Shown here piece by piece: positions 130-7,679 of a stretch of 40,223 nucleotides of DNA (positions are counted from its first letter, which is position 1; the number at the start of each line of letters is the position of its first letter). Under the pieces are notes generated by a model. It did not search any database and had not been told where the DNA came from. It saw only the letters and a program-made list of their open reading frames with translations. The stretch is from a virus. Its lineage: Duplodnaviria > Heunggongvirae > Uroviricota > Caudoviricetes. The stretch lies in the IMG/VR virus record IMGVR_UViG_3300020201_000012, positions 64,001 to 104,223 of that record. One strand, given 5' to 3'. The translations under genes were made by a program, and so were the position numbers.

Positions 130-157
130 TTGACAAATATTATATGCGGTGTATAAT
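130..157 (+). promoter_or_regulatory. sigma70-type promoter for the TROVE/DUF2828 gene
   Basis: TTGACA (130-135), 16 nt, TATAAT (152-157). Confidence 0.75.
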
Positions 158-218
158 TATAAGTGAGCAGTTATGCTATAATAATATTGATAAATTCAAC
201 AAAGAGGATAGCCAACCC

Positions 219-1721
219 ATGAGTTTTATAAACGAACTTCAAACTAGTACTAATAAAACCGCACGTACCGAAAACGGTGCTGTGTCTAACACATCTACAC
301 TTGACCCAGTTTTAGATTTTTTTTCTAAGGCTGGGGCTATGCGTGGAAGAGAAGTAGAGGCATTTAGTCTTTTCCAAAAGGCTTTCGATGCTCACCCGCA
401 GAACGCAATTCGTGTTTTGTTCTACCTACGAGATATTCGTGGTGGACAAGGCGAGCGTTCTGTTTTTAGTTATATACTTGATCAGCTCGATGAAGATTTT
501 GTAGCCAAGATTGCACATTACATACCTGAATACGGTCGCTGGGACGAGGTGCCACTAAATGATGCTACAGCCGAAATAATCAGTCACCAATTAAGTGAAG
601 ACTTCAAACATATGGAAGAAGGATTATCTATTTCGCTTCTAGCCAAGTGGATGCCGTCTGAAAATGCCGGTAAAGCTTCTTTTAAGGATGCTCGTAAGTT
701 AGCTAAACTATTGGGTTGGGTTGGTAATCCAATCGAAATCAAAACAGTGGGCGTAGATGAAAATGGTGGTGAAGTAGAAACTATCAAGAGAATACCTAAC
801 CTTGCACCGTATCGTCGCAATGTTGTCAAGCTTCGTAAATATTACGAAAATTTCTTAGAACACTTAATGAGTGAAAAGCGTTGGGGCGAAATAGATTATT
901 CTAAGCTGCCGTCGCAGGCTCACAAAAAGCACGTTAAAGCCTTCTTCAGGAATGATGAAACTCGATATAAAGCCTACCTAGACTCAGTGACAAAAGGTGA
1001 AGCCAAGATCAACGCTGGCACACTGTTCGCCTACCAGCTGTATGACATGGTTGCTGGCTATAGGGCTACTGATGATGAGAAGAAAGCCGCTAATGCTCTA
1101 TGGGCAAATTTGCCAGACTACACAAGAGGGCAGAACGCACTTGTTTTAGCTGATGTATCTGGTTCTATGGCTGGCTTTCCTATGAGTGTCAGTGTTTCAC
1201 TGGCACTATACTTCGCCGAACGCAACGAGGGTCAGTTTAAGGACTATTTCATGACGTTCACTTCACAGTCACGTTTACAGAAGATTTCCGGTGATACTTT
1301 GGAAGCTAAGATGCGTTCGATTGAAACCGCTAACTGGGATATGGGCACCAACTTACAGTCTGCTTTCGATGCGATATTAAAGGCGGCACGAGACGGAAAT
1401 GCTACACCAGATGAAATGCCATCTACTTTGTACATCATCTCAGATATGCAGTTCGACGAAGCGACTGCAAGAAATGATAAAACTAATTTCGAAGTTATAG
1501 CTGAGAAGTTCAAGACTGCTGGTTACGAGCTACCACATGTGGTGTTCTGGAACTGTAGCGCTTACGGCAAGGATTCACCAGCAACGGTATATGATGAGAG
1601 GGTCACATTGATCTCAGGCTCTAACCAGAGTGCATTTCAGTATGCAGTTGAAGGTAAAACCCCGATGCAGAGCATGCTTGATATTCTTAACTCAGATAGA
1701 TACGCGGGTATAGTAATATAA
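219..1721 (+). CDS. Ro60-like TROVE + vWA protein (DUF2828-type)
   Basis: Motifs TENGA, LDFF, RDIRGGQGER, PEYGRWD, AKWMP, INAGTL, MIDAS-like DVSGSM, ISDMQFD, VVFWN. Start moved to ATG 219 because the track start (144) lies inside the promoter. Confidence 0.85.
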   Translation: MSFINELQTSTNKTARTENGAVSNTSTLDPVLDFFSKAGAMRGREVEAFSLFQKAFDAHPQNAIRVLFYLRDIRGGQGERSVFSYILDQLDEDFVAKIAHYIPEYGRWDEVPLNDATAEIISHQLSEDFKHMEEGLSISLLAKWMPSENAGKASFKDARKLAKLLGWVGNPIEIKTVGVDENGGEVETIKRIPNLAPYRRNVVKLRKYYENFLEHLMSEKRWGEIDYSKLPSQAHKKHVKAFFRNDETRYKAYLDSVTKGEAKINAGTLFAYQLYDMVAGYRATDDEKKAANALWANLPDYTRGQNALVLADVSGSMAGFPMSVSVSLALYFAERNEGQFKDYFMTFTSQSRLQKISGDTLEAKMRSIETANWDMGTNLQSAFDAILKAARDGNATPDEMPSTLYIISDMQFDEATARNDKTNFEVIAEKFKTAGYELPHVVFWNCSAYGKDSPATVYDERVTLISGSNQSAFQYAVEGKTPMQSMLDILNSDRYAGIVI

Positions 1722-1728
1722 AAAGTAC

Positions 1729-1757
1729 TTGACATTTAAAACTCGGTAGAGTATAAT
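1729..1757 (+). promoter_or_regulatory. consensus sigma70 promoter driving the ncRNA array
   Basis: TTGACA (1729-1734), 17 nt, TATAAT (1752-1757); no convincing ORF before the terminator at 2344. Confidence 0.85.
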
Positions 1758-1764
1758 TACAGTG

Positions 1765-1821
1765 TAGGGTTTAACAGCAATAAAAAAACAATCGCCTTGA
1801 ATGCAATTTAAATAACCCTAG
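1765..1821 (+). ncRNA. Y-like RNA unit 1 (closing stem, ACAGCAA, anticodon-like hairpin)
   Basis: TAGGGTT (1765-1771) pairs with AACCCTA (1814-1820); ACAGCAA follows the 5' strand; internal ATCGC-CTTGAAT-GCAAT; ends in CTAG. Confidence 0.6.
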
Positions 1822-1837
1822 TTTTTAGAAAAAATAT

Positions 1838-1930
1838 TAGACAGAAACAGCAAACCATATCGCCAGCAATGGCTCTACCAGGAACGGTTAGGTAGCTCCG
1901 TATAAAAAAAAGCCACCACAAACTGTCTAG
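1838..1930 (+). ncRNA. Y-like RNA unit 2
   Basis: TAGACAG (1838-1844) pairs with CTGTCTA (1923-1929); ACAGCAA; GCCA-GCAA-TGGC GNRA hairpin; CTACC/GGTAG stem with a D-loop-like AACGGTTA loop; ends in CTAG. Confidence 0.6.
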
Positions 1931-1945
1931 AATAGAAAAAGCCTG

Positions 1946-2056
1946 TAGGGGCTTCCAGCAAATACACAATCCACTGTAAATGGAGAGGTCGCAGGTTCAA
2001 ATCCTGTCAGGGCTTGCCCTGTAGCTCAGCGGTTAGAGCGCTATTAAAGCCCCTAG
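1946..2056 (+). ncRNA. Y-like RNA unit 3 containing a circularly permuted tRNA-like domain (GUA anticodon loop)
   Basis: TAGGGGCTT pairs with AAGCCCCTA (9 bp); CCAGCAA; then anticodon arm 1969-1985, AGGTC, T arm 1991-2007, loop-closed acceptor stem 2008-2021, D arm 2024-2039. Confidence 0.8.
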
Positions 2057-2144
2057 TATATAGATTATGGCCGCTGAGGCATTCGCCCTTATAAGGTGTT
2101 ATAAGACAATCACGGTTGCCATTGTCTATATTAAATCACAATAC

Positions 2145-2230
2145 AGAGCTATACAGCAACTAAAAATATTGGTTCGATTCCAATCTTCTCTTCGGATAAG
2201 ATGCCCTAACGGTAGGGGCACTAGCTCTAG
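2145..2230 (+). ncRNA. Y-like RNA unit 4 (YrlA-like T arm, capped acceptor, D arm)
   Basis: AGAGCTA pairs with TAGCTCT (2222-2228); ACAGCAA; ATTGG-TTCGATT-CCAAT; CTTCTC-TTCG-GATAAG; GCCC-TAACGGTAG-GGGC; ends in CTAG. Confidence 0.75.
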
Positions 2231-2235
2231 ATCAT

Positions 2236-2338
2236 TAGACACAAACAGCAAAAATACATATACTTTCTCGAAAGAGTCACAGTAGTACTATCGGTGATAT
2301 GGCTATCCCCCTGAATCGTACATTCCAAAAGTGTCTAG
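2236..2338 (+). ncRNA. Y-like RNA unit 5
   Basis: TAGACAC (2236-2242) pairs with GTGTCTA (2331-2337); ACAGCAA; internal CATAT/ATATG, ACTT-TCTCGAAA-GAGT and TCAC/GTGA stems; ends in CTAG. Confidence 0.6.
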
Positions 2339-2343
2339 CAAAG

Positions 2344-2365
2344 AACCTCCTTCGGGGGGTTTTTT
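2344..2365 (+). terminator. intrinsic terminator closing the ncRNA array
   Basis: AACCTCC-TTCG-GGGGGTT followed by a T run. Confidence 0.85.
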
Positions 2366-2391
2366 ATTTCCCGATGGTGTATAATAAGAGT

Positions 2392-2874
2392 ATGAAGAAA
2401 ACCAAAACGCCAGAAGAGCGTAAGCAAAGGTTGATAAAAAACCTAGAAAAAGCTCGCGCTGTCGCAAAACAGAACAGAGAACAGAAAAAAGTAGATAAAG
2501 AGGCGGGTCTTTATGTGGCACCGCCGAGAAAAAAGCCTAAAAACCTAGACAAGATTATACGTGAGATTCTTAATGATGACACGTTAGTCGATAGTATAGT
2601 TGAGAGTCAGCCAGATTACTGGAAACGCTTACCGGCGAAAAATGGTGGGTACATCATAGCCACAGTAATGATGGTCAAGGCAATGGGCGGAGACATTAAA
2701 GCAGCTGAATGGATTAGAAAAACTGGTTTTGGTGATAAGGTTATGCTCGAATCATCAGACGGTTTCTTCCAGCGTGATGAGTTTACTATTCACGTTGTGC
2801 CTTCTAAGCAATTAGAAGATGGAATAAATCTAAGTGAAGTTTTAGAAAATGAAATAAAGCAAATCGAGGAGTAG
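2392..2874 (+). CDS. probable terminase small subunit
   Basis: Basic N-terminus and KAMGGDIKAAEWIR helix typical of TerS; upstream of TerL. Start at ATG 2392, 6 nt after TATAAT; the track start lies inside the RNA array. Confidence 0.55.
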   Translation: MKKTKTPEERKQRLIKNLEKARAVAKQNREQKKVDKEAGLYVAPPRKKPKNLDKIIREILNDDTLVDSIVESQPDYWKRLPAKNGGYIIATVMMVKAMGGDIKAAEWIRKTGFGDKVMLESSDGFFQRDEFTIHVVPSKQLEDGINLSEVLENEIKQIEE

Positions 2875-2876
2875 TT

Positions 2877-3842
2877 ATGAGCCTTAATTATAAGTGGTCT
2901 TTCTCTGACTACCCGTCTAAGAAAAACGGCTTTACCGTAATGTCCACTTTTGCTTGTGGTGGTGGTAGCTCAATGGGTTATAAGCTGGCTGGGTTTGATG
3001 TAGTCGCCGCTAATGATATAGACCCACAAATGGCAGAGGTATACATACAGAATCATAATCCTAAGCAGTTTTTTGAGTGTAGTGTTACTGATCTTAAAGA
3101 CAGAAACGATCTTCCAGAAGTAGACATCCTTGATGGTAGCCCGCCGTGTTCTGTATTTAGTATTGCTGGACTGGGAAAGAAAGTCTGGGGTAAGAGTAAG
3201 AAGTTTAGAGAAGGACAAGCAGAGCAAGTACTTGATGACTTATTTTTTGAGTTTGAGAAATTAGCTCGAAAAATGAACCCTAAAGTAGTTGTGGCAGAGA
3301 ATGTCAAGTCTATGCTTCACGGTAAAGCTAGAAAATATGCAGAAGAATATTGCCGTCGAATGAATAGATCTGGTTACACAACTCAGGTATTTGTTCTAGA
3401 CGGGTCAAAGATGGGTCTTCCGCAGAAACGAGAAAGAGTATTTTTTATATCTAATAGACTCGGCAAGAAGTTAAGTCTCGAGTTTAACGACACCTTAGTC
3501 AAGTTTAGAGAAATAAGCGATGACACAGACACGGCTACAAATCTATCGCCACTCTATCAAGAGTACTGGAATAAGGCAGTAGAGGGCGAAGCAGTCGGTA
3601 AGTTCGATGCTCGTAGGAAGCTATGGATAGACAGACCCTCTAGAACGGTGACAGCAAGTGGAGCTAACTTTCACCCTTTATACCCCAGAACTATAAACTT
3701 TAAAGAAGAGCTCCTTCTATCTTCGTTTCCTCAAGATTATGATTTTACCGGAGTTAAGCCAACATACCTAATGGGCATGAGTGTCCCACCTTTAATGATG
3801 GCTCGTGTTGCCAAAGAAATACAAAAACAACTACTATCATGA
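2877..3842 (+). CDS. DNA (cytosine-5)-methyltransferase
   Basis: FACGGG motif I, catalytic GSPPCS, ENV motif VI, QKRER motif VIII. Confidence 0.9.
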   Translation: MSLNYKWSFSDYPSKKNGFTVMSTFACGGGSSMGYKLAGFDVVAANDIDPQMAEVYIQNHNPKQFFECSVTDLKDRNDLPEVDILDGSPPCSVFSIAGLGKKVWGKSKKFREGQAEQVLDDLFFEFEKLARKMNPKVVVAENVKSMLHGKARKYAEEYCRRMNRSGYTTQVFVLDGSKMGLPQKRERVFFISNRLGKKLSLEFNDTLVKFREISDDTDTATNLSPLYQEYWNKAVEGEAVGKFDARRKLWIDRPSRTVTASGANFHPLYPRTINFKEELLLSSFPQDYDFTGVKPTYLMGMSVPPLMMARVAKEIQKQLLS

Positions 3843-5275
3843 CACCAGATTTAACTATATCAGAGGTTCAAAACCTCGCAATGCAAGAGTTTAACAACCC
3901 TCAGACTGTTTCGATCGTTTTCGGGGGTGGGGCAGGTGGTGGAAAATCTTTTCTACTAGGTTTACTAACTGCGATCGCCGCCAAACAATACCCAAGAACT
4001 CGTTGGGGTCTTGCCCGTAAAGAGCTGAAGAGTTTAAAGCAGACAACCCTAGCCACTCTCATCGGTAAGGTTCACCCAGTTCTCGGCATCACAGAACACG
4101 ATTATAAATTAAATCTTCAAGATTCAACAATAGAATACTCGAATGGTTCAGAAATACTTCTACTTGACTTAACTGCAAAGCCATCCGACCCAGAAATGGA
4201 GTCCTTGGGTAGTTTAGAGTTAACCGGTGCATTCGTAGATGAGGTAGGAGAGGTTAATAAAAAAGCTTATGACATATTATCCTCTCGTGTCAATCGTTGG
4301 CTGAATAAAGAATATGGTATTACTGGAAAAGTAGTCGGAAGTTGCAACCCAAGCCCCGGATTCGTTCGCCAAGATTATTATGATAAATATGAAAAACTAG
4401 GTTCAGGTAGAATACAGCGTTGGGCTAATGGTCATGTATGGGTAAATGGTGAGCGCAAGACAGCTTATAGCGTCTATATTCGCTCTACAGTGCTTGATAA
4501 CCCTTTTATAGATGATAACTATATCGAAAACCTTAAAAGAATGCCGCCACAAGAAAAGAAACGTCTACTGGACGGCGATTGGAACTATCTAGACGAAGAT
4601 GATTCATTGTTCTCTATGAAGCTCATAGATAAGATAACAGTTTACGAAAGACCCGAAGTATTAAGAAACGATGAAGGTGAATTAGTAGACGAATTTGGAA
4701 AATTGAAGAAGTTTAATAAGTATATAGGTGTCGACCCTTCAGACTCAGGAAAAGATTCTACTGTTATTACTTTAGTAAACGAGGGAATCATAACCGATCA
4801 ATTTGAAGTTAAGTCACCAGTAGGTAAAGATGATGCTATTGGTTTCTTTATCGCGGGCAAACTTATTGCTTTCGCGGAAAAAAATGGTTTCACTAAACAC
4901 TTAGCTAGAAATATAACTATAGAAGGAAACGGAATTGGTGCCAGTTTAAGGGACTCACTAAGAGTGATGGGTTGGAACGTACAAGTGTACATGGCTACGC
5001 TTCAAACTCGCAATGATGGATTTTATGAGTTTATGGTAAACGCTGATGAAGGAAAGATTAAGATTCTTTATGAAGTGATAGAAGCTGGTAACCTACTCAG
5101 ACAGCTCACAGCGCACCGATACGACCTAGACACGGGTAAACCTCGCATTACTAAGAAAAAAGAGCTTAGAAAGCTTCTAGGGCGGTCTCCCGACCATGCT
5201 GACTCGGCTATGATAGCTAACATGGCGTCCAACAAGATGAAACCCAAAAATATAAGTTCTTATATAAGGTGGTAA
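3839..5275 (+). CDS. terL: terminase large subunit
   Basis: Walker A GGGAGGGKS, Walker B FVDEVGE, DNPF motif, RNase H-like GVDPS...D and C-terminal SPDHADS. Confidence 0.9.
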   Translation: MTPDLTISEVQNLAMQEFNNPQTVSIVFGGGAGGGKSFLLGLLTAIAAKQYPRTRWGLARKELKSLKQTTLATLIGKVHPVLGITEHDYKLNLQDSTIEYSNGSEILLLDLTAKPSDPEMESLGSLELTGAFVDEVGEVNKKAYDILSSRVNRWLNKEYGITGKVVGSCNPSPGFVRQDYYDKYEKLGSGRIQRWANGHVWVNGERKTAYSVYIRSTVLDNPFIDDNYIENLKRMPPQEKKRLLDGDWNYLDEDDSLFSMKLIDKITVYERPEVLRNDEGELVDEFGKLKKFNKYIGVDPSDSGKDSTVITLVNEGIITDQFEVKSPVGKDDAIGFFIAGKLIAFAEKNGFTKHLARNITIEGNGIGASLRDSLRVMGWNVQVYMATLQTRNDGFYEFMVNADEGKIKILYEVIEAGNLLRQLTAHRYDLDTGKPRITKKKELRKLLGRSPDHADSAMIANMASNKMKPKNISSYIRW

Positions 5276-5276
5276 T

Positions 5277-6296
5277 ATGGCTTTCGTAGCAGACACTAAG
5301 GTATTATCGAAATCTGGATGGAAACTTATAGGTGAAATATCTGGGCAAGATCAAATACTGGTACGCAACTTTTTAGGTGATGCTCAGTTTTCACAACCGT
5401 TTGCTATTAGAAAAAAGCAGCATGACGGAATAGTGTTGGCTGGCGGTTCGGACCACTACAGCTTTGAAGTTACGCCTGATCACAAAATAATATATACGAA
5501 CGATAAAGGCAAGCAGTTTGAGTCTAACGCTAGAGACGTGCCTTCCGGAAAAAGAACTTTACTACACCACCGGTCAAGATACTATCCGCAAGATGATTTT
5601 TTTAAACAATTTGTAAAAACAGGTAGCTCTATTAGGGGTGTTGAAGCGGTTGACTGGTATAAGCTAGTGGGATATATGCTAAAGAAGGGTTTAGTTGATA
5701 AAAAGAAAGATAGACTTTTCTTGTATGTAGATAAAGACAACCCCGAGAAAGATATGAATATTATTTGCGGCGTATTAGATAATATCGGGTTAGAGTGGAC
5801 GTTTGTTAAGCCAAAAACCATCGTAGTGTCTCAGAAATCTAATATAGCTAATAAGCTCGCTATTGCTCTAGGCTCTAGAAGTAGAAGAAGTATGTATATA
5901 CCCAGCAAGATGATTAACAACAGCACTACAGAGTACGCCACAGCGCTGATTGAGACGTTTATTCGTGCATCTAGAAAAGATGGTCAGGGTGTCGAAAAGA
6001 CCCTACAGTTTTCAACCTCAAATATGAAACTCATAAAAAGTATGGAGGTATTAGGTTTACTATCAGGATACACGATTAGCAACCGGTTAGTAAAACCCGC
6101 GGGGTCTAAAGTTCCAAGAGGGTTCACAAAAAGGGATTCTCATGTAGTTTATGTGAGGAAGTCGGTAAACGAAGTAAGCATAACGTCCAAAAAAGAAAAA
6201 CAATATTCAGGAAGCGTCTACGAGATAGATATATTCGAAGGTCAGGTCATAACAAAAATAGAAGGGTCTTTGCCAGTATGGATGCAACCGAAATGA
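5277..6296 (+). CDS. free-standing intein-like Hint + LAGLIDADG protein, catalytically degenerate
   Basis: AFVADTKVLSKSGWKLI (block A with Ala in place of Cys1), VTPDH (block B), YSGSVYEIDI (block F), no terminal His-Asn; the two LAGLIDADG helices lack acidic residues. Confidence 0.7.
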   Translation: MAFVADTKVLSKSGWKLIGEISGQDQILVRNFLGDAQFSQPFAIRKKQHDGIVLAGGSDHYSFEVTPDHKIIYTNDKGKQFESNARDVPSGKRTLLHHRSRYYPQDDFFKQFVKTGSSIRGVEAVDWYKLVGYMLKKGLVDKKKDRLFLYVDKDNPEKDMNIICGVLDNIGLEWTFVKPKTIVVSQKSNIANKLAIALGSRSRRSMYIPSKMINNSTTEYATALIETFIRASRKDGQGVEKTLQFSTSNMKLIKSMEVLGLLSGYTISNRLVKPAGSKVPRGFTKRDSHVVYVRKSVNEVSITSKKEKQYSGSVYEIDIFEGQVITKIEGSLPVWMQPK

Positions 6297-6598
6297 AATT
6301 TGGTGATAAGATATTCGCATATGGAAGAATGACCGATTACGATATGCACGAAGAAATAGGATTAGAAAATCCTTCTTATAATAGTGTTCTGGGATATATG
6401 CCCATAGGTGGCTTTTATATTATTCCCGAAAAGACAGATAGAATAGATGTGTACTTACCTGGATTCGTAATGGATTACATCCCCAGTTTAGCGTCACAAA
6501 CGCTATTTGCTAAAATGGAAATGGTGAACGTTACAAAATTATTATCCCTACAGGAGCCAACCCTGAAGGGAACTAATGTGTGGATGCCCATACCCTAG
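6278..6598 (+). CDS. hypothetical protein
   Basis: ORF coupled to the upstream gene (start may be ATG 6293); converges with the minus-strand block. Confidence 0.5.
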   Translation: MDATEMKFGDKIFAYGRMTDYDMHEEIGLENPSYNSVLGYMPIGGFYIIPEKTDRIDVYLPGFVMDYIPSLASQTLFAKMEMVNVTKLLSLQEPTLKGTNVWMPIP

Positions 6599-7055
6599 AA
6601 ACCAATAAGTTTCTAATTACTTCTAACTTATATACCCCTGTACCATTCGAGGCACAAGGCATACACCAATTTTCTTTACTAGAATTAGAGGTTGTTGAAG
6701 TGTTGCACCCAGAACAGGATACTGTATATTTATGTATCGCTGCTCCCGTACAGTAGCCGTCATACGGCATTGAAGGGCTTAGCCTGTTACAGAGTTCTAT
6801 AAACTCGCTACCGTGCCCCTTACCGTATCCTAGTAGTGCGTGGGTGGCTTCATGTATGGTCGTTCTATGAAACTCTTCTTCTGTGGCTATTGCTATATAC
6901 CTTTTACTATATACTATTTTTTTCTCATCATGTTTAGTCTTAGCTATAACAGAGTAACTGTTGTCGGTTTCAATACCCCAACCGCTTAAGCCTAGTAGGT
7001 CTAATATAGACCTAGAACGTTTTAGTGCTATTTCTATCTTATCTTTTTTATACAC
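6573..7055 (-). CDS. SprT-like zinc metalloprotease domain protein
   Basis: TTIHEATH...GHGSEF (HExxH plus HG..F) and C-terminal CxxC...CxxC. Confidence 0.7.
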   Translation of the reverse strand: MYKKDKIEIALKRSRSILDLLGLSGWGIETDNSYSVIAKTKHDEKKIVYSKRYIAIATEEEFHRTTIHEATHALLGYGKGHGSEFIELCNRLSPSMPYDGYCTGAAIHKYTVSCSGCNTSTTSNSSKENWCMPCASNGTGVYKLEVIRNLLVSRVWASTH

Positions 7056-7064
7056 TAATAACTC

Positions 7065-7679
7065 CTATGGGTTTACTTTTTTGAATGCTTGTGCGAACTT
7101 CTGACTGTTCAAACTTCTGAACTCCATATCACTCTCTGGCTTGAACGTAGAGAACTCAGGAATAAAACGAACGTGGCTCTTATGCATAAATGCTAAACTT
7201 GGCTTGCCTCTTCCCGGTCTTTGGTATAAACCCTCTAGCTTAGGTACTTCTGCCCAGTCACTATACACACGATCAGGGATATTAAACTTACCCCAGAGTG
7301 CTGTCTTCTTAGTCCACGGGCTGCCAAACCACCACGGCTCATACTGAAACTGTGGCTCGCCTAAATAGTTTTTCAACTCTCCCTTAGCTGGGTTCTCAAT
7401 AACCCACCAAACAGGGTTAGCTTCTTTTATTATTCTTTGGCACTCTTTAACTAGAAACATACCCTTATCTGGGTCTCGTGCTTTACCGCTTGACCTAGCG
7501 GTACTGAACTCAGTACATACAGGGTTAGCAATAATTCCGTGCACACCTTTGGGTGGGTGGTAGTTTTCTACACCAATTTTACTACCTACTAATATAACCT
7601 CATAATCGGGGTCATCTTGGTACGGCTTTGTATCACTACCTGTATCTGCACATAAGTGTAGTATTATCCTTTTTACCAT
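7065..7679 (-). CDS. small C5-type DNA methyltransferase
   Basis: ILHLCADTG, IIANPVCTEFS (PC motif), WVIENP, TKKTALWG. Confidence 0.7.
   Translation of the reverse strand: MVKRIILHLCADTGSDTKPYQDDPDYEVILVGSKIGVENYHPPKGVHGIIANPVCTEFSTARSSGKARDPDKGMFLVKECQRIIKEANPVWWVIENPAKGELKNYLGEPQFQYEPWWFGSPWTKKTALWGKFNIPDRVYSDWAEVPKLEGLYQRPGRGKPSLAFMHKSHVRFIPEFSTFKPESDMEFRSLNSQKFAQAFKKVNP

What the first reader, a model, noticed from the sequence alone, without database searches (positions are those of the whole stretch)
1969..2040. Circularly permuted, nearly complete tRNA (GUA anticodon) nested in unit 3
Seen order 5'->3': anticodon arm (A)TCCA-CTGTAAA-TGGA(G), variable loop AGGTC, T arm GCAGG-TTCAAAT-CCTGT, acceptor stem CAGGG-CTTG-CCCTG sealed by a G(CUUG)C tetraloop, U8-A9, then D arm GCTC-AGCGGTTA-GAGC and G26. 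Joining 2016-2040 to 1969-2013 gives an ordinary cloverleaf, so the break is at position 26/27. There is no CCA and the acceptor end is sealed, so it cannot be charged as transcribed. YrlA RNAs lack an anticodon loop, whereas this one keeps a Tyr-type loop on a short-variable-arm body. Inference: either a non-chargeable tRNA decoy or a permuted tRNA precursor needing excision, ligation and reopening.
Basis: partly seen in the sequence, partly recalled or inferred. Interest (0 to 1): 0.85.

Follow-up and report, generated by a model that had tools for sequence, protein, structure and literature searches.

The report
Rearranged tRNA look-alike, phage Ro partner
A phage carries a small RNA gene that folds like a complete tRNA whose strand order is rearranged and whose amino-acid end is sealed; it is most likely a tRNA mimic displayed by the phage's Ro60-like RNA-binding protein rather than a working tRNA, and its anticodon-like triplet changes unusually fast between related phages.

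Summary
Positions 1969-2042 contain an anticodon-type hairpin, variable loop, T arm, sealed 5-bp acceptor hairpin and D arm. ARAGORN calls the re-permuted sequence tRNA-Tyr(GTA).

The element is unit 3 of five stem-closed RNAs, each with a stem plus CAGCAA "handle". They lie between a consensus promoter and a terminator, just after a DUF2828/DUF7788 gene whose model matches Ro60 best.

Eleven close orthologues and about 30 distant ones keep the same architecture. All helices covary, including the Levitt 15:48 pair.

One correction: two pairs formed in trans place the strand break at 28/29, not 26/27.

The loop frame (C/A32, U33, A37, A38) is conserved but the triplet is not (GUA, GUU, UUU, UGA, GAU and others). 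In near-identical pairs the triplet differs at 31% of sites, against 0% for loop flanks and 9% elsewhere.

A maturing permuted tRNA is unlikely. Acceptor stems vary from 5 to 8 bp under stable tetraloops, there is no CCA although all 24 true tRNAs of this phage encode it, and non-tRNA units carry the same closing stem.

Best reading: a non-chargeable, YrlA-like tRNA mimic that partners a Ro-like protein, here with a full anticodon arm. The anticodon-nuclease decoy idea remains open.

This scan has already noted the same RNA family in at least 61 other genomes. I found no published description.

The parts
144..1721 (+). Gene for the Ro60-like protein (DUF2828 + DUF7788, 525 aa), presumed protein partner of the RNAs
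   Evidence: Pfam PF11443 and PF25043. PHROG 850 'RNA-binding protein'. Homologues are annotated 'Ro-like RNA binding protein' in mycobacteriophages. The AlphaFold model's top 10 Foldseek PDB hits are all Ro60/TROVE structures.
1729..1757 (+). Consensus sigma-70 type promoter of the RNA array (TTGACA-17-TATAAT)
   Evidence: 12 of 12 matches. Also present in L010 and L002.
1765..1821 (+). Unit 1: handle (stem + ACAGCAA) enclosing a short hairpin
   Evidence: Unit parser. Orthologous first units occur in all related arrays.
1838..1930 (+). Unit 2: handle enclosing a GCAA-capped hairpin and a D-arm-like hairpin
   Evidence: In L010, L170, L172 and L174 a YrlA-type module replaces it.
1946..1954 (+). 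Unit 3 closing stem, 5' strand (UAGGGGCUU)
   Evidence: Pairs with 2047-2055. 9 bp in the MFE, centroid and RNAalifold structures. Three pairs show double changes in orthologues.
1955..1961 (+). Handle motif CCAGCAA, the family hallmark (A/C)CAGCAA next to the 5' strand of the stem
   Evidence: Present in every unit of the array and in 162 of 178 DUF2828 loci on the gene's strand: 580 units against 135 on the opposite strand.
1962..1970 (+). A-rich 5' linker between the handle and the anticodon-type hairpin
   Evidence: Variable in length and sequence among orthologues.
1971..1983 (+). Anticodon-type hairpin: cis pairs C1971-G1983, C1972-G1982, A1973-U1981 (tRNA positions 29-31:39-41) and 7-nt loop CUGUAAA (32-38, triplet GUA at 1976-1978). 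U1970 can add a fourth cis pair with A1984.
   Evidence: The three cis pairs covary in 21 homologues. Loop profile is U33 39/45, A37 40/45, A38 40/45, with positions 34-36 variable.
1984..1985 (+). A42 and G43: 3' strand of the two trans pairs that complete the 5-bp anticodon stem
   Evidence: Pair with U2042 and C2041. Pair types are AU17/CG3 and GC18/AU2. These pairs were not used to select the sequences.
1986..1990 (+). Class-I type variable loop AGGUC (positions 44-48)
   Evidence: C1990 (position 48) with G2029 (position 15) forms the Levitt pair, CG12/UA7 across homologues. The 26:44 combination is G.A or A-U/U-A in 16 of 21.
1991..2007 (+). T arm GCAGG-UUCAAAU-CCUGU
   Evidence: Three of the five pairs show double changes.
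2008..2021 (+). Sealed acceptor-like hairpin, 5 bp plus CUUG tetraloop. No free end, no discriminator base, no CCA.
   Evidence: All six aligned pairs covary. Orthologues have 5-8 bp with loops of 3-7 nt.
2022..2040 (+). U8 A9, D arm GCUC-AGCGGUUA-GAGC, and G26
   Evidence: The D arm, variable loop and T-arm 5' half are letter-for-letter those of many bacterial tRNA-Ile2(CAU) and some tRNA-Val genes.
2041..2042 (+). C27 and U28: 5' strand of the trans pairs. The chain then leaves the cloverleaf, so the break is at 28/29.
2043..2056 (+). 3' linker (2043-2046) and closing stem 3' strand AAGCCCCUA (2047-2055), followed by G, giving the unit-end CUAG
2145..2229 (+). Unit 4: handle enclosing a minimal T arm, UUCG-sealed acceptor and D arm, without an anticodon hairpin
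   Evidence: R1 scores it 31.5 bits. Absent from L010.
2236..2338 (+). Unit 5: handle enclosing a conserved non-tRNA core
   Evidence: The core is conserved in the last unit of every related array.
2346..2366 (+). Intrinsic terminator of the array

Best explanation
Positions 1946-2056 encode one of five small RNAs made from a dedicated promoter directly downstream of a phage Ro60-like (DUF2828/DUF7788) gene.

Each RNA has the same "handle": a terminal stem with (A/C)CAGCAA beside its 5' strand. The handle is inferred to dock the RNA on the Ro-like ring protein, as the conserved stem/CGAA region does for Y RNAs on Ro60. The variable insert is the working end.

In unit 3 the insert is a circularly permuted tRNA mimic with a D/T elbow, class-I variable loop, sealed acceptor hairpin and a full 5-bp anticodon stem with a 7-nt loop. 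The chain enters at position 29 and leaves after position 28.

It cannot be aminoacylated or decode. It most likely presents a tRNA-shaped surface, including an anticodon loop, to tRNA-recognising proteins. These could be modification enzymes (as shown for YrlA), an exoribonuclease partner (as in Ro-Y RNA-PNPase particles), or host tRNA-directed nucleases.

Shown: sequence anatomy, conservation, covariation, genomic linkage and the fold similarity of the protein.

Inferred: expression, protein binding, and which partner the mimic engages.
For: Anatomy and tRNA-likeness:
-.

Conservation and covariation:
- 11 close orthologues keep the handle, hairpin and all arms, while the T, acceptor and D arms change by compensatory substitutions. 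Two different tRNA bodies sit on the same handle and hairpin.
- In 21 diverse homologues 99% of cells are paired against 67% in shuffles, with covariation score 0.90 against 0.24 (0 of 500 shuffles reach it). Slid controls give 27-48% paired.
- The Levitt 15:48 pair covaries.

Reach of the family:
- Model R1 finds further members at 50-69 bits in other phage contigs, mycobacteriophage LeBron and Felix O1.
- Handle units are 4.3 times more frequent on the DUF2828 gene's strand and occur in 162 of 178 loci.

Protein partner:
- The protein model's top PDB matches are Ro60 from Deinococcus, Thermus phage phiLo, human and Xenopus.

Literature:
- YrlA tRNA-like Y RNAs next to Ro60 are modified by tRNA enzymes (PMC4201824).
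- Phage phiLo Ro60 binds two phage Y-like RNAs and host PNPase (PMC12135203).
- Bas63 gp130 is described as structurally similar to Ro60, lies just upstream of a run of tRNA genes as the DUF2828 gene does in Felix O1, and counters the Ppl defence (10.1101/2024.10.10.617714).

Genome context:
- 24 tRNAs and an RNA ligase / Pnkp / PTH2 / RlaP / CCA-adding block.
Against: - There are no RNA data. All sequencing runs holding this DNA are microbial-mat DNA metagenomes, so transcription, processing and mature ends are unknown.
- There is no direct evidence that the DUF2828 protein binds the handle.
- The protein-to-Ro60 match has high Foldseek probability but low TM (0.30-0.38), on a model with pLDDT 74. 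Sequence searches do not reach Ro60 or TROVE.
- The YrlA Rfam score is below the gathering threshold (38.8 against 69).
- Among close orthologues the anticodon stem UCCA/UGGA does not vary, so its pairing is proven only by the distant set. That set was partly selected for having a hairpin.
- G1958-C2041 pairing with the handle motif is an alternative for C2041 in the single-sequence fold.
Confidence: 0.75

Rival explanations
1. Anticodon-nuclease bait or decoy. This is a specific version of the mimic idea. The anticodon-type loop imitates the target loop of host tRNA-cleaving defence nucleases. The RNA either soaks them up or, once cut, is handed to the phage repair enzymes, and the triplet is retuned as hosts change.
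For: - In pairs at least 85% identical outside the loop, the triplet differs at 13 of 42 sites. The loop flanks differ at 0 of 56 and the rest at 100 of 1125.
- The window and L010 are 94% identical yet carry GUA and UUU.
- L144, L103 and L101 are 96-98% identical yet carry GUA, GCA and CCA.
- Frequent triplets are UUU, GUU, GAU, GUA and UGA. tRNA-Lys is the PrrC target, and phage tRNA repair counters it (PMC2610378 abstract).
- The genome carries RNA ligase and Pnkp.
- A Ro60-like protein of Bas63, encoded just upstream of tRNA genes, counters a defence system.
Against: - A fast triplet inside a conserved loop frame is also expected if the triplet is simply unconstrained.
- The pairs compared are not independent.
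- No nuclease is known for several of the triplets seen.
- Ppl, the only defence experimentally linked to such a Ro60-like protein, is not known to cut tRNA.
- There are no cleavage data.
Confidence: 0.18
2. Ordinary YrlA. The hairpin would be the "V" stem-loop that Chen et al. described upstream of the T arm in many YrlA RNAs, not an anticodon arm, so nothing is added to the known family.
For: - Chen et al. [quoted passage not shown]
- The Rfam YrlA model aligns to 1984-2042.
Against: - The hairpin lies 5' of the trans pairs 27:43 and 28:42, not between them and the T arm.
- A normal 4-5-nt class-I variable loop follows it, and C48 of that loop makes the Levitt pair.
- Its loop is 7 nt with the U33/A37 anticodon-loop signature, seen in 20 of 43 modules against 1 expected.
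- The GNCGAA Ro-binding motif of YrlA is absent and CAGCAA stands in its place.
- The partner protein is not a Pfam TROVE protein.
Confidence: 0.08
3. Permuted tRNA gene. The transcript would be cut out, its ends joined at the anticodon stem by the phage RNA ligase, the acceptor loop opened, CCA added, and the product would serve as the tRNA-Tyr missing from the phage's tRNA set.
For: - ARAGORN reads the re-permuted sequence as tRNA-Tyr.
- The phage has 24 tRNAs but none for Tyr.
- It encodes RNA ligase, Pnkp and a CCA-adding-type enzyme.
Against: - The acceptor stem is 5 bp here and 5-8 bp in orthologues, capped by stable CUUG, UUCG or GUAA loops, with no discriminator base.
- All 24 true tRNAs of the phage encode CCA and this element does not.
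- The triplet differs among orthologues on the same body: GUA, GUU and UUU on body A.
- The variable loop is short, unlike bacterial tRNA-Tyr, which has a long variable arm (own knowledge).
- The closing stem is an unbroken 9-bp helix with no bulge-helix-bulge, and the same stem plus motif encloses units with no tRNA parts.
- In some relatives the handle sits inside the acceptor loop instead.
Confidence: 0.03
4. Decaying tRNA relic or chance resemblance with no function of its own.
For: - The linear Rfam tRNA hit at 1942-2011 is exactly at threshold (29 bits).
Against: - The linear reading is not conserved. L002 has no complement for the acceptor strand.
- The permuted architecture is conserved with compensatory changes across phages whose Ro-like proteins are only 35-90% identical.
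Confidence: 0.02

Closest known systems
YrlA, the tRNA-like bacterial and mycobacteriophage Y RNA bound by Ro60/Rsr (Rfam RF02553; Chen et al. 2014, PMC4201824)
   Same: - Encoded next to a Ro-type ring protein gene.
- Same permuted order: T arm, sealed acceptor stem-loop, D arm.
- Covarying Levitt pair.
- Anticodon-stem pairs made by the 5' and 3' strands.
- Terminal stem with a conserved single-stranded motif on its 5' side.
- Not chargeable.
   Different: - Only two trans pairs, after which the 5' strand folds back into a hairpin with a 7-nt anticodon-type loop.
- The motif is CAGCAA rather than GNCGAA.
- The partner is DUF2828/DUF7788, not Pfam TROVE.
- Five units in one array.
- The Rfam score is 38.8 bits against a gathering score of 69.
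Deinococcus radiodurans Yrn1 (as modelled by Chen et al. 2014)
   Same: - A Y RNA drawn with a potential 5-bp anticodon arm as well as a T arm.
   Different: - Yrn1's loop has 6 nt.
- It has no full D arm and no variable arm.
- Its arm order relative to the RNA ends differs, and it is judged to have evolved independently.
Yrl1/Yrl2 of Thermus phage phiLo with phiRo60 (PMC12135203)
   Same: - Phage-encoded Ro60 homologue with several adjacent Y-like RNAs.
- The RNP also binds host PNPase.
   Different: - The phiLo RNAs are described as stem-bulge-stem with a CGAA motif, and no tRNA-like domain is mentioned.
- phiRo60 is a recognisable Ro60.
Circularly permuted tRNA genes of the red alga Cyanidioschyzon merolae (own knowledge; not read here)
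   Same: - The 3' part of the cloverleaf is encoded upstream of the 5' part.
   Different: - Those genes mature through a circular intermediate made by the splicing endonuclease at a bulge-helix-bulge, followed by RNase P and RNase Z cuts at real acceptor ends plus CCA.
- Here the acceptor is a short sealed hairpin, there is no bulge-helix-bulge, and the setting is a bacteriophage.
Class I RNAs of dictyostelid social amoebae (PMC7919456)
   Same: - A short terminal stem joins the 5' and 3' ends.
- A conserved 11-nt single-stranded motif sits next to its 5' strand.
- The unit 3 11-mer GCUUCCAGCAA has the five near-invariant letters T3, C6, C9, A10 and A11.
- The interior is variable.
   Different: - Class I RNAs are 42-65 nt, eukaryotic and reported as Dictyostelia-specific.
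- They have no tRNA-like insert.
- Their known binder is an RRM protein.
- The literal motif sequence is from my memory. Only the five positions were checked against the paper.

Membership tests
YrlA (Rfam RF02553) | Scores at or above the Rfam gathering threshold (69 bits) | tested here: not met
   38.8 bits, with a local match to model positions 24-84 only. It is not reported at all in gathering mode.
YrlA (Rfam RF02553) | tRNA-like domain in the order T arm, closed acceptor stem-loop, D arm, with tRNA tertiary pairs (Levitt 15:48 covariation) | tested here: met
   (15:48 is CG12/UA7).
YrlA (Rfam RF02553) | Encoded within a few kb of a Ro60/TROVE protein gene | tested here: inconclusive
   The RNA lies 225 nt downstream of a DUF2828/DUF7788 gene. 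There is no Pfam TROVE hit and no PDB sequence hit. The predicted fold matches Ro60 structures best, with Foldseek probability 1.00, E 3e-6 and TM 0.30-0.38.
YrlA (Rfam RF02553) | GNCGAAN0-1G motif near the 5' end (proposed Rsr contact) | tested here: not met
   There is no CGAA in 1946-1990. (A/C)CAGCAA occupies the equivalent place in every unit.
YrlA (Rfam RF02553) | No anticodon loop: the anticodon-stem strands run on into the Ro-binding helix | tested here: not met
   Two trans pairs are followed by a cis hairpin with a 7-nt U33/A37-type loop.
Functional tRNA (Rfam RF00005) | Contiguous cloverleaf found by tRNA finders | tested here: not met
   ARAGORN finds none in the native window. The linear Rfam hit of 29.0 bits sits exactly at threshold, uses a degenerate D region, and is not conserved in L002.
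Functional tRNA (Rfam RF00005) | 7-bp acceptor stem with free ends, discriminator base and CCA (encoded or added) | tested here: not met
   The stem is 5 bp sealed by CUUG. Orthologues have 5-8 bp sealed stems. The phage's own 24 tRNAs all end in encoded CCA.
Functional tRNA (Rfam RF00005) | Anticodon conserved among orthologues | tested here: not met
   GUA, GUU, UUU and UGA occur among 11 orthologues. The triplet is the fastest-changing site.
Circularly permuted tRNA genes (C. merolae type) | Bulge-helix-bulge at the junction of the precursor ends, for the splicing endonuclease | tested here: not met
   The closing stem is a continuous 9-bp helix without bulges. The same stem closes non-tRNA units.
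Circularly permuted tRNA genes (C. merolae type) | Circular or re-ligated intermediate and a mature CCA-ended tRNA | not testable with these tools
   No RNA runs hold this sequence.
DUF2828-linked 'handle' RNAs (uncurated family seen in this scan) | Terminal stem, (A/C)CAGCAA next to its 5' strand, a variable insert, and location on the strand of a DUF2828 gene | tested here: met
   One search counts 580 units in 162 of 178 loci, against 135 on the opposite strand. Also seen in LeBron and Felix O1.
Dictyostelid Class I RNA | 6-bp terminal stem plus an 11-nt motif with T3, C6, C9, A10 and A11; 42-65 nt; Dictyostelia | tested here: inconclusive
   The stem-plus-motif geometry and the five letters fit. 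The length (111 nt), the organism and the tRNA insert do not.

The most novel reading that the evidence does not exclude
Phage Ro-like particles display a programmable anticodon-loop bait. The permuted tRNA mimic keeps a constant body and loop frame while its triplet is exchanged to match whichever host anticodon nuclease (or other anticodon-reading factor) the phage must neutralise or sense. The mimic works together with the phage's own tRNA set and RNA-repair enzymes.
Probability: 0.17. Interest if true: 0.85.

Novelty: new variant of a known kind. Interest (0 to 1): 0.6.

Why it matters
Ro60 and its Y RNAs are a conserved but poorly understood RNA-surveillance particle, and YrlA showed that bacterial Y RNAs mimic tRNA.

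This element shows that a second, sequence-divergent Ro-like family (DUF2828/DUF7788) travels with its own RNA family. That protein family is present in hundreds of cultured phages, including Felix O1, A511 and cluster L mycobacteriophages. One recurrent member of its RNA family is a complete tRNA mimic including an anticodon arm.

This gives a concrete, testable ligand for a protein family whose only reported phenotype is counter-defence, in Bas63. The fast-changing triplet in a fixed loop frame points to what the mimic may be aimed at.

Felix O1 and Bas63 carry family members, so the question can be addressed in standard laboratory strains.

Tried and rejected
- DNA similarity searches of 1700-2400 against phage records and E. 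coli genomes found nothing.
- The protein search in genome contigs found no relative.
- An exact-pattern search for the handle plus hairpin in viral contigs returned only the contig of L002.
- A PDB sequence search with the protein profile gave no Ro60 hit, and NCBIfam gave nothing.
- No RNA sequencing run holds the stretch, so expression, ends and circular junctions could not be examined. Laying DNA contigs showed only a few substitutions, none in unit 3.
- The module is not a recent copy of any of the phage's own 24 tRNAs (best 51 of 68 letters).
- Model R1 also hits tandem true tRNAs at 25-50 bits (anticodon and T arms of one tRNA plus the D arm of the next). These were removed by overlap with ARAGORN calls.
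- The linear tRNA reading (1942-2011) was considered and rejected.
- Mechanical ORFs over the region were dismissed. Units are gained, lost and swapped between close relatives, which would break any reading frame.
- The Annual Review on bacterial Ro60 (PMC10870794) is not held.

Full report
**Observation.** It holds hairpin UCCA-CUGUAAA-UGGA, AGGUC, T arm GCAGG-UUCAAAU-CCUGU, hairpin CAGGG-CUUG-CCCUG, UA, D arm GCUC-AGCGGUUA-GAGC, and G.
- ARAGORN finds no tRNA in the native 40-kb window. It calls the re-permuted sequence tRNA-Tyr(gta) at default stringency.
- Rfam gives a local YrlA match at 1984-2042 (38.8 bits; gathering score 69; E 6.9e-7 in an 801-nt search). It also gives a threshold-level linear tRNA match at 1942-2011.
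- The linear reading needs CCUG(1942-1945) to pair with CAGG(2008-2011). It is not conserved in the closest divergent homologue.
- The MFE and centroid folds of 1946-2056 contain all four arms and a 9-bp closing stem, with z = -2.68.

**Surroundings.** ORF 144-1721 is a DUF2828 + DUF7788 protein.
- Its relatives in cluster L mycobacteriophages are annotated "Ro-like RNA binding protein". 695 cultured-phage records hold a homologue, among them Felix O1, Listeria A511, and Staphylococcus and Vibrio phages.
- An AlphaFold model (pLDDT 74) finds Ro60 structures as its ten best PDB matches. These are Deinococcus Rsr, Thermus phage phiLo Ro60, and human and Xenopus Ro. Foldseek probability is 1.00 but TM is low, 0.30-0.38.
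- A perfect TTGACA-17-TATAAT promoter (1729-1757) and a terminator (2346-2366) bracket about 600 nt with no credible ORF.
- This space holds five units, each closed by a stem that starts UAG and ends CUAG, with (A/C)CAGCAA right after the 5' strand. The finding is the insert of unit 3.

**Homologues.** Protein searches gave many relatives at 70-91% identity. I fetched eleven contigs with such proteins.
- All have the same gene order (NinG, Ro-like gene, RNA array, small ORF, terminase) and an orthologue of unit 3. That orthologue has the identical closing stem, CCAGCAA, and hairpin UCCA-N7-UGGA-G.
- The T, acceptor and D arms differ by compensatory changes and fall into two body types.
- The acceptor hairpin is 5-8 bp with loops of 3-7 nt.
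- The 7-nt loop is CUGUAAA, CUGUUAA, CUUUUAA or CUUGAAU.
- Units are gained, lost or replaced between close relatives. L010, whose protein is 91% identical, lacks unit 4 and has a YrlA-type unit 2.

**Beyond the close group.** A structure-blind descriptor for T arm, sealed hairpin and D arm found 43 non-tRNA modules in the 178 loci. Almost all were on the strand of the DUF2828 gene.
- Twenty of them are preceded by a hairpin of at least 3 bp whose 7-nt loop has U at position 2 and A at position 6. Shuffling gives 1 expected, and 0 of 1000 shuffles reach 20.
- An alignment of 21 diverse members (A3) shows 99% pairing and a covariation score of 0.90 against 0.24 in shuffles. Slid controls give 27-48% pairing.
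- The three cis pairs of the hairpin each have 5-8 double changes.
- The Levitt pair 15:48 is G:C in 12 and A:U in 7.
- Two pairs not used in selecting the sequences also covary. The base after the hairpin pairs with the base after N26 (GC18/AU2), and the last hairpin base pairs with the next one (AU17/CG3).
- These two pairs complete a 5-bp anticodon stem from 3 cis and 2 trans pairs. The strand break is therefore at 28/29, not 26/27, and A1969 does not pair with G1985.
- A covariance model built from A3 recovers further members at 50-69 bits. These include mycobacteriophage LeBron and an unannotated element between tRNA-Asp and tRNA-Lys of Felix O1, each with the CAGCAA handle.
- Handle units number 580 on the gene's strand in 162 of 178 loci, against 135 on the other strand.
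- In one sub-group the handle unit is inserted in the acceptor loop instead of at the anticodon stem.

**The loop.** Over 45 members the loop profile is C/A32, U33 (39/45), variable 34-36, A37 (40/45) and A38 (40/45). This is the frame of a real anticodon loop.
- Triplets seen include UUU (10), GUU (6), GAU (6), GUA (4) and UGA (4).
- In pairs at least 85% identical outside the loop, the triplet differs at 13 of 42 sites. The four flanking loop positions differ at 0 of 56 and the rest at 100 of 1125.
- The window and L010 are 94% identical but carry GUA and UUU.
- The pairs are not independent. A free triplet in a constrained frame fits both relaxed constraint and retuning.

**Origin of the body.** The D arm, variable loop and T-arm 5' half of unit 3 (39 nt) are letter-for-letter those of ordinary bacterial tRNAs. 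Of 116 genome matches, 109 are tRNA-Ile2(CAU), mostly Bacteroidota and Verrucomicrobiota, and 7 are tRNA-Val. Such tRNAs also occur in the source microbial-mat metagenomes. The module is not close to any of the phage's own tRNAs.

**Genome context.** The phage contig is 104 kb at 40% GC.
- It has 24 tRNA genes, all with encoded CCA, and none for Tyr, His or Ala.
- It has a block encoding RNA ligase, Pnkp, PTH2, RlaP, an exoribonuclease-like protein and a CCA-adding-type enzyme.

**Interpretation.** The data fit a Ro/Y-RNA-type particle.
- A conserved handle would dock on the Ro-like ring, and a variable effector insert would do the work. Here the insert is a non-chargeable, circularly permuted tRNA mimic.
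- This parallels YrlA, which is encoded next to Ro60, has the same T-acceptor-D order and Levitt covariation, and is modified by TruB and DusA (PMC4201824).
- It also parallels phage phiLo Ro60, which binds two phage Y-like RNAs and host PNPase (PMC12135203).
- Four things differ from YrlA: the full anticodon arm, the CAGCAA motif in place of GNCGAA, the divergent protein family, and the five-unit array.
- The YrlA "V" stem-loop is not a good match for the hairpin. The hairpin lies outside the trans pairs and is followed by a normal class-I variable loop.
- The permuted-precursor idea is disfavoured by the sealed acceptor stems of variable length, the missing CCA, the changing triplets on one body, the bulge-free closing stem, and the use of the same stem for non-tRNA units.
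It fits the triplet turnover, the repair genes, and the counter-defence phenotype of the Ro60-like gp130 of Bas63 (preprint 10.1101/2024.10.10.617714). It has no direct support.

**Novelty.** I found no paper or Rfam family describing DUF2828-linked handle RNAs or a Y RNA with a 7-nt anticodon-type loop.
- Earlier agents of this scan have reported the same RNA family in at least 61 other genomes. They also noted its likeness to dictyostelid Class I RNAs.
- I checked that likeness only as far as the five invariant motif positions given in PMC7919456.
- I rate the element a new variant of a known kind, namely Ro/Y-RNA tRNA mimicry.

Noticed in passing
window 2058-2140: A structured spacer between units 3 and 4 has no CAGCAA handle. 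It contains a 7-bp hairpin AGACAAU...AUUGUCU and is conserved almost unchanged in L010 (4404-4488). Function unknown.
   Followed up: no
window 2236-2338 (unit 5): The last unit of every related array keeps a core GGUGAUAUGGCUAUCCCC(C)UGAAUCGUAC that is not tRNA-like. One metagenome variant (run X2) has a 22-nt duplication behind 2263.
   Followed up: partly
window 2022-2039 and 1987-2006: The D arm and the variable loop plus T arm of unit 3 are letter-for-letter those of ordinary bacterial tRNA-Ile2(CAU) genes (109 of 116 genome matches, mostly Bacteroidota and Verrucomicrobiota) and some tRNA-Val. This may hint at the host group or at recombination with tRNA genes.
   Followed up: partly
genome G000 C1:24092-36364 (outside the window): There are 24 tRNA genes, all with encoded CCA, and one extra aberrant tRNA-like call. 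No tRNA-Tyr, tRNA-His or tRNA-Ala is present.
   Followed up: partly
L301 (G000 C1:50500-58600), 658-7670: An RNA repair and tRNA-end maintenance block: RNA ligase (PF09414), Pnkp (AAA_33 + HAD_PNKP), PTH2, RlaP, an exoribonuclease-like protein and a CCA-adding-type nucleotidyltransferase. It lies 6-13 kb upstream of the Ro-like gene.
   Followed up: yes
L144:4236-4365, L103:4235-4362, L101:5744-5871 (also L128, L134, L135, L164): In these phage contigs the CAGCAA handle unit is inserted into the acceptor loop of the tRNA mimic instead of at the anticodon stem. Three nearly identical copies differ in the triplet (GUA, GCA, CCA).
   Followed up: partly
L178 (Felix O1, NC_005282) 4838-4905 and 4918-5050: Two unannotated handle units lie between tRNA-Asp and tRNA-Lys, about 1 kb downstream of the DUF2828 gene (ORF42). 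The second holds a permuted tRNA-like module (R1 49.5 bits).
   Followed up: partly
L180 (Listeria phage A511) 498-1049: A ROOL RNA match (87.5 bits, below the gathering score of 99.1) lies upstream of the DUF2828 gene. An RtcB-type 'tRNA splicing ligase' gene lies a few genes downstream.
   Followed up: no
window 1955-1961 and all unit handles: The 11 letters ending in CAGCAA fit the five invariant positions of the dictyostelid Class I RNA motif, and DUF2828 proteins also occur in eukaryotes.
   Followed up: partly
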